In this document: positions 3,577-39,808 of the stretch, piece after piece
Numbering within the stretch: the stretch's first letter is position 1
Layout of the letters: every line of letters begins with the position of its first letter
Virus record (IMG/VR): IMGVR_UViG_3300025736_000010
Location: 1-64,000 of that record
Origin: a virus
Length of the DNA stretch: 64,000 nt
Direction: 5' to 3' (one strand)
Position numbers and translations under genes: made by a program
The notes under the pieces: generated by a model
What the model was told of the DNA's origin: nothing
What the model saw: only the letters and a program-made list of their open reading frames with translations
The model's database searches: none

Positions 3577-3999
3577 ATGGAGAGAAAAGGGCTAACAACG
3601 GATCAAGCGATAGAACAGGAATGCTATTCTATTGGTGAAGCTATCGGGAATTGCCTAGAACTCAATGAAGACTTTATCGAACGATACTGCGGAGAGAAGG
3701 TATCGGCTCAACTGTTGAGGATACCTGAGCGCGACAGGGAGTACGCTATTGAGGGATCAATCGGAGAAGGTGAGGAATGCGGTTCAATGTGCGGACTCGG
3801 AGAAGATTCTATTGTTATTCCTATCGGAGAGATTGAAGTCCAGATAGAATCCCTTGAGGACCTTGCGGACCCTGAGGACTGGGTTATACACGGCGACTGC
3901 GCCTACTGTACACTTGACTCGATACGGTTTACAATTGACATTGAGACACTGACAGAAGCTGTTGACTCGATTCTAGACACTGGAGATGATAGCGAATGA
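3577..3999 (+). CDS. very acidic early protein
   Basis: AAAGGGAG RBS; roughly a quarter of residues D/E. Confidence 0.8.
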   Translation: MERKGLTTDQAIEQECYSIGEAIGNCLELNEDFIERYCGEKVSAQLLRIPERDREYAIEGSIGEGEECGSMCGLGEDSIVIPIGEIEVQIESLEDLADPEDWVIHGDCAYCTLDSIRFTIDIETLTEAVDSILDTGDDSE

Positions 4000-4738: not shown

Positions 4739-4960
4739 ATGGCAAAAGACTTCACGCCGGTTGTAACGCAAGTGACACAGGAAGAGGCTGAAAACATGAT
4801 GTTCGGACTTGACTCTATAGGATACTGTAGAGCTTGCGGTGCTGAACGTAGTGGATGTGAACCGGATGCTCGCGGGTACGAATGTTACGAATGTGGCGAA
4901 CATCAGGTGTATGGCTTTGAAGAACTTATGATCATGGGTGAAGTGGAAATTGTAGAGTAG
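4739..4960 (+). CDS. Zn-ribbon protein (CRACG...CEPDA..YEC..CG)
   Basis: Two CxxC pairs; AAAGGGAG RBS. Confidence 0.8.
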   Translation: MAKDFTPVVTQVTQEEAENMMFGLDSIGYCRACGAERSGCEPDARGYECYECGEHQVYGFEELMIMGEVEIVE

Positions 4961-35889: not shown

Positions 35890-36900
35890 ATGGTTAACGT
35901 GGCTAAAATAATTACGGCAGATGTGCTGGAGTGGTGCAAAACATACGATGGGCCTAAGTTCCATGCAATTCTATGTGACCCTCCTTACGAGTTAGGGTTC
36001 ATGGGGAAAAATTGGGATAAGACAGGCATTGTGTTTGATCCGGCGACTTGGGAGGCGTTGGCCGAACATCTATATCCCGGTGGATTTGGGATGGCGTTTG
36101 CATCATCGAGGGGATGGCATCGTTTAGCTGTAGCGATTGAGGATGCTGGATTGCGTATACACCCAAGTATTTTTGGTTGGAATTTTGGCTCGGGATTTCC
36201 AAAAGCTACAAGGGTAAAGGGTTCTGAGGTATTTGAAGGCCATCGGTATGGTCTACAGGCAATGAAACCAGCACTTGAGCCGATCATTATTTTTCAGAAA
36301 AACTACGAAGGAAAGCCAGTAGAGAGCATAGTAGAGACAGGTGCTGGGGCGTTGAACATTGACGGGGCGCGGATCGGGACAGAGGAAAGAGAGTACAATT
36401 TGAAGGGCGGCGAAAACTTAAACAAATTATCTCGCAAAGATGGACATGATTCCGAATCAGCTAAGGGCTGCGGAGCTTACGGAATAGGCGCAAAACAAAC
36501 ATCTATCGGCAGTAAAACAGTACAAGGCCGCTGGCCCGCAAATTTCTACGTAGACGAAGAAGCAGCGGCAAGGCTTGGCGAGCAGAGCGGGGAGCGAAAG
36601 AGTTCGATATACGATACGAGCAAAGGAGACACATGTGGATTCCACGATTCTCTTGGGAGAAAGAAATTGCGCAAACGTACTGATGTTGGTGGCTACGATG
36701 ACACCGGCACAGCCGCAAGATTCTTCTTCAACGTAAACCGTCAGATAGACGAATCAGATCCTGTACTGTATCAAGCGAAGACGTCTAGGAAAGAGAGGGA
36801 TGCGGGGTTGGATGACATGGCTAGCATTAGAGAAAATCTAACGGACAAAGAACGTGAATATGTTATGGTGGAGTTGAGGAAACATGGGTTTCTTGAATAG
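35890..36900 (+). CDS. DNA methyltransferase, N-terminal (DPPY catalytic) part
   Basis: CDPPYELGFMGK.WD, GSGFPK, KPA.EPI, GRWPAN, ARFF, AK.SRKER; lacks motif I. Confidence 0.9.
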   Translation: MVNVAKIITADVLEWCKTYDGPKFHAILCDPPYELGFMGKNWDKTGIVFDPATWEALAEHLYPGGFGMAFASSRGWHRLAVAIEDAGLRIHPSIFGWNFGSGFPKATRVKGSEVFEGHRYGLQAMKPALEPIIIFQKNYEGKPVESIVETGAGALNIDGARIGTEEREYNLKGGENLNKLSRKDGHDSESAKGCGAYGIGAKQTSIGSKTVQGRWPANFYVDEEAAARLGEQSGERKSSIYDTSKGDTCGFHDSLGRKKLRKRTDVGGYDDTGTAARFFFNVNRQIDESDPVLYQAKTSRKERDAGLDDMASIRENLTDKEREYVMVELRKHGFLE

Positions 36901-37732
36901 CGGATTCTATTTCGGAACGAACGATGGAAGGAGATTTATGAACAATACATTCCCAAAAGCGAAGAATGCGCAAACCGCACTTTCTCATATAGGCATCCTG
37001 AGATTTGTCGAGCGCCACTCTCTTGGATTGTCTGGCATCAAGATTAGAAAACTTATCGCGATTGCCGTGCCAGTAGTCGCCGTCGAATTGGATAACAAGT
37101 CCGCGCTCAGGAATAAATGCGTCAACGACGAATTTTTCAAACAACATAGTTTGTTTTGTATAGCCAATCTTCATGCCGTCAAGGATTTTATATCCAGCAA
37201 TCTCAAGCTTGTTCGGGCTAAGTGTTTGTTGTATGGCATTCATCTCAAGAAGGCGTTTCTTAACTGCCGGGTCGTTGTTTCTGCATGTAATAGAACAGTA
37301 AGTTGGGTTAGTCTGCTCGGCACGAGAAGGCGACAACCTATATCTCTTTCCGCATATTTTGCAGATGAATTCTATTTTATTACGCCCTTGCCATTTATTA
37401 GCACAAGCAATAGAACAGAATTTGGCTTCTTCGGAACGGCACTTTGGAGCGTAAAAGACAGTACTGCATTGTTTGCAAACACACATTTTCCCGGTTTTTC
37501 TCTTTGCGTTTCTCGACTTATTGCCGCATTCAGCAGAGCAAAACATATGTTGGTTGTACGTTTGTTGAAACTCTTTCCCGCACCATTCGCATTCGCTGAT
37601 TGGAAGCCTACTCGCGATGCCTTTGCATTTCTTAGAGCAGTAACGGCCTCCGTTCTTTTTTTTATTAGACGCGCAATCGGACCACTGAAACTCCTTCCCA
37701 CATACTTCGCAAATTCTAGTTATTTTTGGCAT
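36863..37732 (-). CDS. Zn-finger-repeat DUF559/Vsr-like endonuclease inserted in the methyltransferase
   Basis: Four C..C..F...(Y/F)CS..C repeats; VD.F...VIQFDGDYWH..D..QD.Y...G..ILRFWE; leaderless start at 37732 after promoter 37739-37767. Confidence 0.88.
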   Translation of the reverse strand: MPKITRICEVCGKEFQWSDCASNKKKNGGRYCSKKCKGIASRLPISECEWCGKEFQQTYNQHMFCSAECGNKSRNAKRKTGKMCVCKQCSTVFYAPKCRSEEAKFCSIACANKWQGRNKIEFICKICGKRYRLSPSRAEQTNPTYCSITCRNNDPAVKKRLLEMNAIQQTLSPNKLEIAGYKILDGMKIGYTKQTMLFEKFVVDAFIPERGLVIQFDGDYWHGNRDKFSNLDARQSKRVALDKSQDAYMRKCGLRILRFWECIVHKSPSIVRSEIESAIQETHVSSTPP

Positions 37733-37782
37733 GTGTATATTATACACGATACAGAACGAATTGTCAAGGCAATGGTGATAAC

Positions 37783-37884
37783 ATGATGGTTAAATACGCT
37801 GATGTGCCAGAGCATTTGAAGAAATATTTTAAGAGAAATTCCGGGGGTGATAATAGTGGGGTGCGGAATTCGCATCCTACTTGA
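37783..37884 (+). CDS. DNA methyltransferase middle fragment (33 aa, MMVKYADVPEHLKKYF...RNSHPT)
   Basis: GGTGA RBS; ends in the conserved NxHPT. Confidence 0.65.
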   Translation: MMVKYADVPEHLKKYFKRNSGGDNSGVRNSHPT

Positions 37885-38123
37885 ATGCCGTTAAGCCTAT
37901 AGACCTAACACGATGGCTAGCAACATTACTATTGCCACCAGAAGAGTATGCGCCGCGCAGAATCCTAGTGCCGTTTTCAGGCTCAGGATCAGAAATGATC
38001 GGGGCGTCATTAGCTGGCTGGGAAGAAATCGTTGGGATAGAAATGGAAGAAGAGTACGTAGAAATAGCAGAGGCGCGATTAAAGCACTGGGAAAATAAAA
38101 CAGAACAACTCAAGCTTATATAG
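37881..38123 (+). CDS. DNA methyltransferase C-terminal SAM-binding part
   Basis: VKP..L.RWL..L.LPP, VPFSGSGSE, GIE..EEY..IA..R; TTG start overlapping the upstream TGA. Confidence 0.85.
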   Translation: MNAVKPIDLTRWLATLLLPPEEYAPRRILVPFSGSGSEMIGASLAGWEEIVGIEMEEEYVEIAEARLKHWENKTEQLKLI

Positions 38124-38133
38124 AGGAGCAAAA

Positions 38134-38937
38134 ATGACAAACGCAAAAGTTATAGAAAAGAATAATGACCTAGTAGTTATCGAAGTAGACGCAGGGTATT
38201 CGGCGACGTTTCTAGAACTTCCCGGAGATTTCTCGCCAGAAAGCTTTTTCAAGGCAACTGAGGTCGTTGAAATACAAAAACAAGACTGCCATACCTGTCC
38301 GCACGCATCTTCAAGTAAATTCGACAAGATTAGGAAGGGCGTTAGTGAAGATGGTAAAAAACATGATATTCTATATGGCCGCGTGATTGGTACAAATCGA
38401 TGGGAAGTTGCGAGTTTTATGTATGAGAAGGCGGAATGGTCGGATTCTGAAGCGAAAGAACACTGCAAGAATCATGGTGGGGTCGCTTTCGAGAAGGCGG
38501 TGGGGAAGGTTGAGGAAGTGGAAGAGGTTGTCGAGGGCGGGTTTGTAGTGAAAAAGGCCGATCAGCTTCGACACCTTGTATACGGCGTAGCTCTAGATGT
38601 CAACACTGTAGATCTGCAAGGAGATTTCGAGGTACCTCTTGAAGTGGAGAAAGCGGCTCACAGATACCTACTGAATTTGTGGGCTGAAGAGAAGCCATCG
38701 ATGATTGGAGCACAACACGACTATCCTATTCCGGCGGCAATTGTGGTAGAGTCCTACATTGCGCCAGTGAGCTTCTACTTTGACGGAACTCCTCACGACG
38801 CAGATCATCTAGTAGAAAAAGGGAGCTGGATTATAGTCAGTTTAATTAGCGACGATGAAGAATTTGATCGCGTATTAAGCGGCGAGTATTCCGGTTATTC
38901 GGTGCAGGGTACTGGCCAAAGGAAACCAATAGCGTAG
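38134..38937 (+). CDS. XkdF-like prohead serine protease
   Basis: KAD...LVYG...DLQGD..EVEKAAH, VESYIAP, KGSW, GEYSGYSV.G. Confidence 0.88.
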   Translation: MTNAKVIEKNNDLVVIEVDAGYSATFLELPGDFSPESFFKATEVVEIQKQDCHTCPHASSSKFDKIRKGVSEDGKKHDILYGRVIGTNRWEVASFMYEKAEWSDSEAKEHCKNHGGVAFEKAVGKVEEVEEVVEGGFVVKKADQLRHLVYGVALDVNTVDLQGDFEVPLEVEKAAHRYLLNLWAEEKPSMIGAQHDYPIPAAIVVESYIAPVSFYFDGTPHDADHLVEKGSWIIVSLISDDEEFDRVLSGEYSGYSVQGTGQRKPIA

Positions 38938-39151: not shown

Positions 39152-39808
39152 GTGAATAAAGAAAAAAAGCGAGAATACAATAAGAGATATCGCGAGAAAA
39201 ACCGCGAACAAATAAGCGCCAAAAATGCTGCTTATTACGTCAAGAACAAGGAGAGGCTTTTGGCCGATCACGCTGTTTATGCAACAGGGCATAGAAAAGA
39301 GAAAAAAGAGACTAATGCTATTTATCGTGCAAACAATAAGGAGAAGAAAAAAGCCTACAACGCAGAACACAAAGAAGAAATAAAATCTTATAGCGCTGAT
39401 TATTACATTAAACATAAAGAGGAGAGAAGGGTTTACGACGCAGCTTATCGTGCTTGCCATAAGGATGAGATAAAAGCTTATAAGGATACTCACAAGGAAG
39501 AGGCAATCGCTTATCGAATCGCGAACAGGGATAAGTGCGCGGCCCATTCTGCCAAGCGGGCGGCTTTAATAAAAGAGGCTACAATAGGAGATTTAGAACA
39601 AATTTCAGAAATATACCGCCAGGCTGATGAGGACGAAGGTATAATATGTTATATATGTGGCGAGGTAATCGATCTTGGAATGCGCCACGTTGACCATGTT
39701 TTCCCCGTGAGCAAGGGAGGAGCACACTGCGCAGACAATCTGAAGATAACTCATGCGCGCTGTAACTTGATAAAAGGGTCAAAGTTGATCGAAGGAATAA
39801 ATATTTAG
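39152..39808 (+). CDS. HNH endonuclease with helical Y/K repeats
   Basis: CYICG...HVDHV.P.SKGG.H..DNL..TH..CN..KG. Confidence 0.92.
   Translation: MNKEKKREYNKRYREKNREQISAKNAAYYVKNKERLLADHAVYATGHRKEKKETNAIYRANNKEKKKAYNAEHKEEIKSYSADYYIKHKEERRVYDAAYRACHKDEIKAYKDTHKEEAIAYRIANRDKCAAHSAKRAALIKEATIGDLEQISEIYRQADEDEGIICYICGEVIDLGMRHVDHVFPVSKGGAHCADNLKITHARCNLIKGSKLIEGINI

What the first reader, a model, noticed from the sequence alone, without database searches (positions are those of the whole stretch)
35890..38123. Methyltransferase split by an antisense endonuclease, with apparent docking peptides on the cut ends
Seen: a beta-class DNA methyltransferase is cut in the variable loop between 'ERDAGL' and 'RNxHPT' by a reverse-oriented Zn-repeat DUF559/Vsr-like endonuclease. 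The N-half (DPPY) ends in a non-methyltransferase amphipathic helix, ASIRENLTDKEREYVMVELRKHGFLE (about 36820-36900). Downstream, a new RBS and start give MMVKYADVPEHLKKYFKR, a Gly/Ser linker (NSGGDNSG), and then VRNSHPT. All catalytic motifs are intact; I see no intein residues or group I core. Established: DPPY and FxGxG must come together for activity, and free-standing endonucleases can split genes whose halves reassemble (nrdA/mobE of phage Aeh1). Inference: the element carries a peptide pair that re-joins the halves non-covalently, a splicing-free analogue of introns and inteins.
Basis: partly seen in the sequence, partly recalled or inferred. Interest (0 to 1): 0.8.

Follow-up and report, generated by a model that had tools for sequence, protein, structure and literature searches.

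The report
Mobile nuclease cassette splitting phage methylase
A selfish DNA-cutting gene has split this salt-lake phage's DNA-methylase gene and brought a conserved pair of short protein tails, an RNA hairpin and an 8-base stop-containing gap that ribosomes probably hop over; such tails are already published for other phage genes, but this widespread methylase version appears undescribed.

Summary
The split is real. The N part of the methyltransferase is 35890-36900. An antisense DUF559/Vsr-type endonuclease lies at 36863-37747. A restart at 37783 gives MMVKY..RNSHPT.

The two peptides are not chance. A tail pattern found 110 distinct copies, all in phage beta-class methyltransferase genes. 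They lie at six gene positions and flank HNH, DUF559/Vsr or NUMOD3 nucleases in either orientation. Intact alleles lack them; three re-fused genes keep them. A nuclease-free allele in the same lake gives the cassette as 36813-37901.

All 19 HPT-site cassettes share three features: a stop or rare codon after the Thr codon, a near-matching codon 2-5 bases on, and a co-varying hairpin ending at that Thr codon. Intact alleles lack the hairpin. I read this as a short ribosomal hop that hides the nuclease's target, as in T4 mobA/gene 60. This is untested.

Tail-mediated assembly is already published (Aeh1 nrdA/mobE; MobA CTE/NTE), so the concept is not new. Binding is not shown here. Earlier agents in this scan noted similar methylase hops on other DNA.

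The parts
35890..36810 (+). Native N part of a beta-class N4/N6 DNA methyltransferase (DPPY ... ERDAGL)
   Evidence: 60-73% identical to intact 370-430-aa methyltransferases that carry PF01555. Homology ends at about residue 307-309.
36813..37901 (.). Inserted cassette (1089 nt) that replaces 34 nt of the nuclease-free allele
   Evidence: contigs of a roughly 90%-identical relative in runs X11 and X12 join 36812 to 37902. The 34 letters between read ...GLEARNNHPTIKPIDL, an uninterrupted allele.
36811..36900 (+). Element-borne C-terminal tail (CTE): ..IRENLTDKEREYVMVELRKHGFLE plus stop
   Evidence: consensus hLRxDLTxxExxYVxxELxxxG followed by a stop, in 110 distinct split methyltransferase loci. 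Predicted strand plus helix in a fused homologue.
36863..37747 (-). Antisense homing-endonuclease gene: Cys-repeat N part plus DUF559/Vsr-like nuclease domain
   Evidence: PF04480, 21.4 bits (cut-off 20.6); 19 viral homologues; relatives L041, L062 and L066 match DUF559, Vsr or MTES_1575.
36884..37786 (+). Stop-free sense-strand 'bridge' frame across the antisense nuclease gene. Its ATG lies inside the tail's end, and its TGA overlaps the head ATG (ATGA).
   Evidence: the nuclease gene has 1 TTA/CTA/TCA codon in 294, against 4.1% genome-wide (P about 6e-6 for none in 288); 47 of 55 antisense-nuclease cassettes have such a frame, ending -5..+2 nt from the head ATG.
37783..37836 (+). Element-borne N-terminal head (NTE): MMVKYADVPEHLKKYFKR
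   Evidence: consensus M-x-h-x-h-x(3-4)-[IV]PxHLxx[YF]FxP begins the downstream piece in 88 loci, mostly behind a Shine-Dalgarno-like sequence.
37837..37881 (+). Element-encoded copy of the replaced methyltransferase loop (NSGGDNSGVRNSHPT), analogous to 'homR' of MobA elements
   Evidence: One search shows the replaced region. One search shows the intact loop ...RNxHPT.
37855..37881 (+). RNA hairpin: 11 bp, 5-nt loop, 3' arm is the codons Ser-His-Pro-Thr and ends at the take-off codon
   Evidence: -17 kcal/mol, z = -5.4; present in 18 of 18 gapped alleles, with compensatory changes at four stem positions; absent from 14 intact alleles (mean -4 against -21 kcal/mol).
37879..37889 (+). Coding gap: take-off ACT (Thr), then TGA-AT, then landing GCC; 8 extra bases relative to HPT|VKP
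   Evidence: the same layout occurs in 19 loci, with gaps of 2-5 nt between the codons (frames 0, +1, +2). The landing codon is always [A/G]CN.
37890..38123 (+). C part of the methyltransferase (VKPIDL...FSGSGSE AdoMet motif...), in the -1 frame relative to HPT
   Evidence: nearly identical to the C end of intact P0002; this frame is open for 74-111 codons in every complete locus. dN/dS is 0.06 against L159.

Best explanation
Window 36813-37901 is a homing-endonuclease cassette of the MobA/MobE type that has invaded a phage beta-class DNA methyltransferase gene.

The cassette carries:
- a conserved C-terminal tail plus stop for the upstream piece;
- an antisense DUF559/Vsr-type endonuclease gene, recoded so that the sense strand stays stop-free;
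- a ribosome-binding site, a start codon and a conserved N-terminal head for the downstream piece;
- its own copy of the replaced loop up to HPT, folded into a hairpin;
- a stop-initiated gap just before VKP.

Shown: the anatomy, its recurrence, its absence from intact alleles, and the conservation of each part.

Inferred:
1. Tail and head fold together and let the two polypeptides reassemble into an active enzyme.
2. Ribosomes translating the head piece stall at TGA with Thr-tRNA on ACT. The hairpin re-forms behind them, the tRNA re-pairs 8 nt on at GCC (a G-U pair at the first position), and translation continues with VKP. This restores HPTVKP.
3. The gap breaks the endonuclease's recognition site in the conserved HPTVKP coding DNA, so the carrier allele is immune, as for the T4 gene 60 gap and MobA.
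4. The bridge frame keeps ribosomes on the mRNA and couples translation of the two halves.
For: Recurrence of the tail:
- A profile search placed the tail at the extreme C end of methyltransferase N fragments in about 27 of 33 hits.
- A DNA pattern found 29 viral and 111 metagenome stretches.
- These gave 110 distinct copies, all in methyltransferase genes: 88 with a head 500-1000 nt downstream, 3 fused. They lie at six positions.

Content of the inserts: HNH, DUF559/Vsr or NUMOD3 nucleases, in sense or antisense orientation.

Absence from intact alleles: (56 of 57 homologues lack the module), and a same-habitat allele.

Re-fused genes: L032 keeps tail, a 51-nt nuclease remnant and head in a single ORF.

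Selection: dN/dS is 0.26 for the tail and 0.22 for the head.

Fold: in the fused P0150 model the module is strand-helix-helix-strand at pLDDT 85-92.

Hop at the HPT site:
- 19 of 19 junctions have a stop (or TTA in a GC-rich phage) directly after the Thr codon, followed by [A/G]CN before VKP. ACG pairs with GCG; ACY pairs with GCC or ACC.
- 7 of 19 have no ATG, GTG or TTG upstream in the landing frame.

Hop at motif IV: 13 more gaps use CTT/CTT, TGG/TGG, TAT/TAT, TAT/TAC and similar pairs.

Hairpin: co-varying and specific to gapped alleles.

Published precedent for every part.
Against: - No protein, RNA or activity data exist for any member. No RNA run holds this DNA.
- In this window a TTG (37881) overlaps the TGA, so stop-restart could make the C piece without a hop.
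- Several GC-rich relatives have a GTG with a good Shine-Dalgarno sequence 9-10 codons upstream of the landing codon.
- Most landing codons are Ala (GCN), not Thr, so re-pairing needs a first-position G-U pair.
- The hairpin lies 5' of the take-off site, unlike the main T4 take-off stem-loop.
- The endonuclease's cleavage site is unknown.
- All tails lie in methyltransferases only, which a fully generic adaptor would not predict.
Confidence: 0.6

Rival explanations
1. Three-piece enzyme without recoding. The head piece ends at HPT-TGA. The C piece starts on its own by termination-reinitiation at the overlapping TTG 37881 (TTGA), giving M-N-A-VKP... The three polypeptides then assemble.
For: - TTGA or GTGA overlaps are present in the window, L019, L032 and L138.
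- Stop/start overlaps are used elsewhere in the cassette (ATGA at 37783-37786).
Against: - 7 of 19 loci have no canonical start in the landing frame.
- This does not explain the landing codon being kept as [A/G]CN, the matched codons at 13 motif-IV gaps, or the co-varying hairpin ending at the take-off codon.
- It would leave a catalytic motif cut with extra residues.
Confidence: 0.2
2. Dead gene. The invasion and the 8-base insert inactivated the methyltransferase. Tail, head and gap are passenger sequence that is copied along with the nuclease gene.
For: - Loss of a phage methylase can be tolerated.
- The nuclease-free allele is more abundant than the carrier in run X12 (depth 22 against 5.4).
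- Some loci carry extra breaks (L013).
Against: - The C frame is open and conserved in all complete loci; dN/dS is 0.06.
- Tail and head have dN/dS of 0.2-0.26.
- The features are conserved across GC contents from about 40% to over 65%.
- Compensatory changes occur in the hairpin.
- The sense frame across the nuclease gene is kept stop-free.
Confidence: 0.1
3. Tail plus head is an ancestral small domain native to some methyltransferases. Nucleases merely target its conserved DNA; the element does not carry it.
For: - Three uninterrupted genes hold tail and head side by side (P0128/L176, P0150, L063).
- Every copy lies in a methyltransferase.
Against: - Only 3 of 110 copies are fused. The fused forms keep the head's start Met, and L032 keeps a nuclease remnant.
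- The module sits at six non-homologous positions.
- 56 of 57 and 9 of 9 close intact homologues lack it.
- The same-habitat intact allele lacks it.
Confidence: 0.07
4. The interruption is removed by RNA or protein splicing (group I/II intron or intein).
For: Endonucleases of this fold are known inside introns and inteins.
Against: - No Rfam family matches at E up to 1 on either strand.
- The nuclease gene is antisense, so it cannot be an intein.
- Tail and head are conserved as peptides, each with its own stop, ribosome-binding site and start.
Confidence: 0.02

Closest known systems
T4-type MobA element splitting topoisomerase gene 39/60 (Manning and Atkins, bioRxiv 10.1101/2022.08.31.505936; Bonocora et al. 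2011 as cited there)
   Same: - A nuclease gene lies between two halves of an enzyme gene.
- Conserved element-borne C- and N-terminal extensions are present.
- The element carries its own copy of the replaced host segment.
- A coding gap starts with a stop or hungry codon and is flanked by matched codons.
- The nuclease has been swapped or lost in some copies, and re-fused 'hit and run' genes keep the tails.
   Different: - The target is a DNA methyltransferase, not a topoisomerase.
- The nuclease here is DUF559/Vsr-type and antisense.
- The gap is 2-5 nt between the codons, not 47 nt.
- The hairpin lies 5' of and includes the take-off codon.
- The same tail pair occurs at six positions of the target family.
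- A stop-free sense frame bridges the antisense nuclease gene.
Aeromonas phage Aeh1 nrdA-a / mobE / nrdA-b (Crona et al. 2011, PMC3045599)
   Same: A free-standing endonuclease fragments an enzyme gene. Unique tails created by the insertion are needed for activity and act as interaction domains. The authors present this as an alternative to RNA or protein splicing.
   Different: Those tails are unrelated in sequence, specific to one site, and have been tested experimentally. No coding gap is described there. Here nothing has been tested.
Vsr-like (EDxHD) homing endonucleases such as I-Bth0305I (from my own knowledge, not checked here)
   Same: A Vsr/DUF559-type nuclease fold used as a homing endonuclease in phage genes.
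   Different: That enzyme is intron-encoded. The sequence search of solved structures gave no match for the window's protein.
Naturally split inteins
   Same: Two short complementary peptides sit on the cut ends of a split gene.
   Different: There are no intein motifs. The peptides stay in the product and no ligation is expected. Fused forms retain them.

Membership tests
MobA/MobE-type homing-endonuclease cassette with tails | Endonuclease gene inserted inside an enzyme gene, absent from close intact alleles | tested here: met
   a same-habitat allele joins 36812 to 37902.
MobA/MobE-type homing-endonuclease cassette with tails | Conserved element-borne C-terminal and N-terminal extensions on the two pieces | tested here: met
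MobA/MobE-type homing-endonuclease cassette with tails | Tails needed for assembly or activity of the split enzyme | not testable with these tools
   This needs co-expression and methylation assays. The single complex prediction gave no verdict.
MobA/MobE-type homing-endonuclease cassette with tails | Endonuclease homologous to MobA/MobE (HNH) | tested here: not met
   the window's nuclease is DUF559/Vsr-like. Sister cassettes do carry HNH nucleases.
Programmed translational bypass (gene 60 type) | Stop or hungry codon directly 3' of the take-off codon | tested here: met
   30 of 31 junctions (the count includes TTA in GC-rich L018). In the window it is TGA at 37882.
Programmed translational bypass (gene 60 type) | Landing codon able to pair with the take-off tRNA | tested here: inconclusive
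   All 31 junctions match at 2 or 3 positions. 11 are identical or synonymous. The window pair ACT/GCC needs a first-position G-U pair.
Programmed translational bypass (gene 60 type) | Conserved mRNA structure at the take-off site | tested here: met
   a co-varying hairpin in 18 of 18 gapped alleles, absent from 14 intact alleles.
Programmed translational bypass (gene 60 type) | A single polypeptide made across the gap | not testable with these tools
   This needs mass spectrometry or reporter assays.
Beta-class N4/N6 DNA methyltransferase (PF01555) | DPPY catalytic motif, and an FxGxG AdoMet motif after it | tested here: met
   DPPYEL lies in the N part and FSGSGSE in the C part. Close homologues carry PF01555. 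The window's pieces alone score below the Pfam cut-off.
DUF559 / Vsr-like endonuclease | Profile match above the curated cut-off | tested here: met
   21.4 bits against a cut-off of 20.6 (marginal). Homologues score up to 30 bits.
Group I / II intron | Match to an intron covariance model | tested here: not met
   no Rfam match at E up to 1 in 36600-38200.
Intein | In-frame Hint domain flanking the nuclease on the host strand | tested here: not met
   The nuclease gene is on the opposite strand. The tail ends in a stop codon, and no Hint family appears in Pfam.

The most novel reading that the evidence does not exclude
Phage methyltransferase genes are colonised by one family of gene-splitting kits. 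Each kit has four parts:
- a portable tail/head adaptor pair that works at any of at least six surface positions and with at least three nuclease families;
- a miniature ribosomal hop driven by a 5' hairpin, which hides the nuclease's target inside a catalytic motif without changing the protein;
- antisense nuclease genes recoded to leave a stop-free sense frame that couples translation of the two halves.

This would give a second, much larger natural family of translational bypass, and a ready-made natural split-protein adaptor.
Probability: 0.35. Interest if true: 0.85.

Novelty: new variant of a known kind. Interest (0 to 1): 0.7.

Why it matters
Natural translational bypass is established experimentally only for T4 gene 60 and its relatives. 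A large, diverse set of 5-13-nt hops with a co-varying hairpin would give recoding research many natural variants to test. It would also mean that many phage genes now annotated as frameshifted or broken are in fact intact.

The tail/head pair works at six positions and with several nuclease families, so it extends the nrdA/mobE 'interaction tail' idea from one case to a family. It is a candidate natural adaptor for split-protein engineering.

The stop-free sense frame over antisense nuclease genes suggests a way in which selfish elements limit their polar cost to the host gene.

For annotation, these methyltransferases should be called as one interrupted gene plus a mobile element, not as three or four hypothetical ORFs.

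Tried and rejected
- Megablast of the region against GenBank phages found no match.
- tblastn of the 27-aa tail against the same set found no match.
- The search for related loci with tail alignments confirmed only 1-3 loci, because its tblastn check on a 29-aa query is too strict. A hand-made degenerate DNA pattern worked instead.
- Complex prediction on tail (A7) against head (A8) gave no verdict: score 0.26, mark 0.32. I do not use this either way.
- No RNA holder is listed for this DNA.
- The search of solved-structure sequences with the nuclease found nothing meaningful.
- RNAalifold on an ungapped alignment put the stems out of register, because loop lengths differ. It was replaced by per-sequence folds indexed from the take-off codon.
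- -1 or +1 frameshifting as a common mechanism is rejected. The gaps change frame by 0, +1 or +2, and only L018 has a slippery heptamer.
- Genetic-code change (TGA read as sense) is rejected. Long ORFs are normal under table 11, and most gaps are out of frame.
Full report
**What is in the window.**
- ORF 35890-36900 (+) is the N part of a beta-class DNA methyltransferase. It is 60-73% identical to intact 370-430-aa proteins that carry PF01555. Homology ends at ...ERDAGLDD, and 26 unrelated residues follow before the stop.
- ORF 36863-37747 (-) has four Cys-rich repeats and a marginal DUF559 match. It has 19 homologues on viral contigs.
- At 37783 an ATG opens MMVKYADVPEHLKKYFKR-NSGGDNSG-VRNSHPT.
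- It fails at the next step. Intact homologues read RNxHPTVKPIDL. In the window, HPT is followed by TGA and eight extra bases, and VKPIDL...FSGSGSE runs on in the -1 frame to 38123.
- The window comes from a 112,896-bp IMG/VR virus record. Its DNA is held by at least ten salt-lake metagenome runs from 2017-2019.

**Boundaries of the insert.**
- Contigs of a roughly 90%-identical relative, from two runs of the same habitat, join window 36812 to 37902.
- The 34 letters between read ...GLEARNNHPTIKPIDL, which is an uninterrupted allele.
- The cassette is therefore 36813-37901 (1089 nt).
- It includes the tail, the nuclease gene, the head, its own copy of the loop up to HPT, the gap, and the first codons of VKPI.
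- This matches the published MobA element, which replaces 55-75 nt of its target with an element-encoded homologous region.

**The peptide pair is real and travels with the element.**
- A viral contig (L013) carries ..LRDDLTDKEREYVMSELKKAGLI-stop, then 28 nt, then M..VPHHLRKFF.., in a different methyltransferase, at a different position, with no nuclease gene.
- The differences from the window in the tail core are mostly synonymous.
- A profile of the two tails, run against 1.84 billion proteins, gave 33 hits. About 27 place the tail at the very C end of methyltransferase N fragments. Two are uninterrupted proteins with tail and head side by side.
- A degenerate DNA pattern for the tail found 29 viral and 111 metagenome stretches.
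- After removing identical DNA, 110 copies remain, every one in a methyltransferase gene. Of these, 88 have a head 500-1000 nt downstream, 17 are cut by contig ends or have no head found, 3 are fused, and 2 are other.
- The copies lie at six positions of the enzyme: just after motif IV; after GLEPTP; after the LWLNLGDSY loop; before IIWxKxN; before NVW..AHFAxFP; and before HPT|VKP.
- The inserts encode HNH, DUF559/Vsr or NUMOD3-bearing nucleases, in sense or antisense orientation.
- Intact homologues lack the pair: 9 of 9 in the window's family and 56 of 57 in the P0150 family.
- L032 holds tail, a 51-nt antisense remnant of the nuclease gene, and head in one ORF. This is a 'hit and run' form like those described for MobA.
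- Against its closest relative L159, dN/dS is 0.26 for the tail and 0.22 for the head. The segments are short, so these values are rough.
- In an AlphaFold model of the fused P0150, the module is strand-helix-helix-strand at pLDDT 85-92.
- Whether tail and head bind each other is not shown.

**The break after HPT is a conserved device, not decay.**
- All 19 cassettes at the HPT site show the same order: the Thr codon; a stop codon directly after it (or TTA in the GC-rich L018); 2-5 further bases; a codon [A/G]CN; and then VKP.
- In L083 and L164 two extra codons (Arg-Ser) lie between the landing codon and VKP.
- The extra DNA is 5, 6, 7, 8 or 13 nt long, so the frame change is 0, +1 or +2. No single frameshift fits.
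- ACG pairs with GCG; ACY pairs with GCC, GCT or ACC. A first-position G can pair with U36 of a Thr tRNA.
- The downstream frame is open for 74-111 codons in every complete locus. In 7 of 19 loci it has no ATG, GTG or TTG upstream.
- Thirteen further gaps sit in motif IV (SPPYW|GLRDY) of tail-bearing genes. Their codon pairs are CTT/CTT (twice), TGG/TGG (twice), TAT/TAT, TAT/TAC, TGG/TGC (three times), TGG/AGG, TAC/TAG, TAT/GAT and TTT/TTC. All but the last have a stop directly after the first codon.
- By chance, a match at two or three positions is expected in 10 of 64 cases. It is seen in 31 of 31, although many of these junctions are related by descent.

**A hairpin marks the take-off site.**
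- In 18 of 18 gapped alleles, the codons X-His-Pro-Thr form the 3' arm of a 9-14-bp hairpin. The 39-nt segments fold at -17 to -29 kcal/mol.
- Several pair types occur at four stem positions, which indicates compensatory change.
- In the window the stem is 37855-37865 paired with 37871-37881 (z = -5.4).
- Fourteen intact alleles lack the hairpin (mean -4 kcal/mol).
- A stem that re-forms behind the ribosome would pull the mRNA forward. A 2024 preprint proposes this role for exiting mRNA in the T4 case; I saw only its title and abstract.

**Why a gap.**
By analogy with MobA, whose 50-nt gap protects the carrier from its own nuclease, I infer two things. The nuclease recognises the conserved HPTVKP coding DNA (or motif IV DNA). 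The gap hides that site while leaving the protein unchanged. The cleavage site has not been mapped.

**Bridge frame.**
- The sense strand across the antisense nuclease gene is stop-free from 36884 to 37786.
- The nuclease gene uses one TTA/CTA/TCA codon in 294, against 4.1% genome-wide.
- The frame's ATG lies inside the tail's end, and its TGA overlaps the head's ATG.
- Of 55 antisense-nuclease cassettes, 47 have such a frame ending within -5..+2 nt of the head ATG. In the 9 sense-orientation cassettes the nuclease ORF itself ends there.
- This suggests translational coupling and protection from polarity. That reading is an inference.

**Comparison with what is known.**
- Crona et al. showed that insertion-derived tails are essential for the split Aeh1 NrdA. 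[quoted passage not shown]
- Manning and Atkins described conserved C- and N-terminal extensions, a replacement homologous region, nuclease swaps and re-fusion for MobA elements. They proposed tails as a general strategy.
- I found no paper on methyltransferase-targeting cassettes, on a tail pair shared across positions and nuclease families, on short hops with a 5' hairpin, or on the bridge frame.
- Earlier agents of this scan reported similar short hops in phage methylases on other DNA. Those notes are unchecked. I tested the HPT-VKP gap, the helix and the bridge frame independently here.

**Verdict.**
- Best reading: a MobA/MobE-like cassette for methyltransferases with a probable short ribosomal hop.
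- In this window, stop-restart at TTG 37881 remains a live alternative.

Noticed in passing
window 36884-37786 (+): A 300-codon stop-free frame lies antisense to the nuclease gene and is coupled by an ATGA overlap to the head ORF. The same design occurs in 47 of 55 antisense-nuclease cassettes. Another first-stage note on this window flagged this frame.
   Followed up: yes
L013 2405-2415; L151; L123; L063; L071; L161 and others: A second class of short stop-initiated gaps sits inside motif IV (SPPYW|GLRDY), flanked by identical or near-identical codons. They lie 190-580 nt upstream of the tail in cassettes at other positions.
   Followed up: partly
L047 (508-aa open frame): A tail-bearing N fragment of one methyltransferase runs on, in frame and without a stop, into a second complete methyltransferase of the window's family that has an intact HPTVKP.
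   Followed up: no
L048, L152, L165: At the NVW..AHFAxFP position, the N fragment keeps a degenerate copy of the motif (..RNVWTAPE..) and the C fragment carries a second copy. This duplication resembles an element-borne replacement region.
   Followed up: no
L015 about 3860-3990 (-); L022 about 4800-4873 (-): Homologues of the window's nuclease lie directly beside methyltransferase motifs (..RTVKPIDLMKW.., ..DLAIVD..) with no tail or head detected. These may be other insertion modes.
   Followed up: no
window 36812/37902, runs X11 and X12: A nuclease-free allele from a roughly 90%-identical phage coexists with the carrier in the same lake samples, at higher contig depth (22 against 5.4 in X12).
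   Followed up: partly
window 39152-39808 (+): A 218-aa ORF has a Lys/Glu-rich repetitive N part and an HNH-like C end (..HVDHVFPVSKGG..CNLIKG). It may be a second free-standing nuclease, 1 kb downstream.
   Followed up: no
G000:C1:100324-100581 (+), outside the window: A weak second match (E = 3e-5) to the Cys-repeat N part of the nuclease lies elsewhere in the same phage.
   Followed up: no
window 38134-38937 (+): An XkdF-like phage serine protease (PF14550, E = 1e-23) lies directly downstream of the methyltransferase C part.
   Followed up: no
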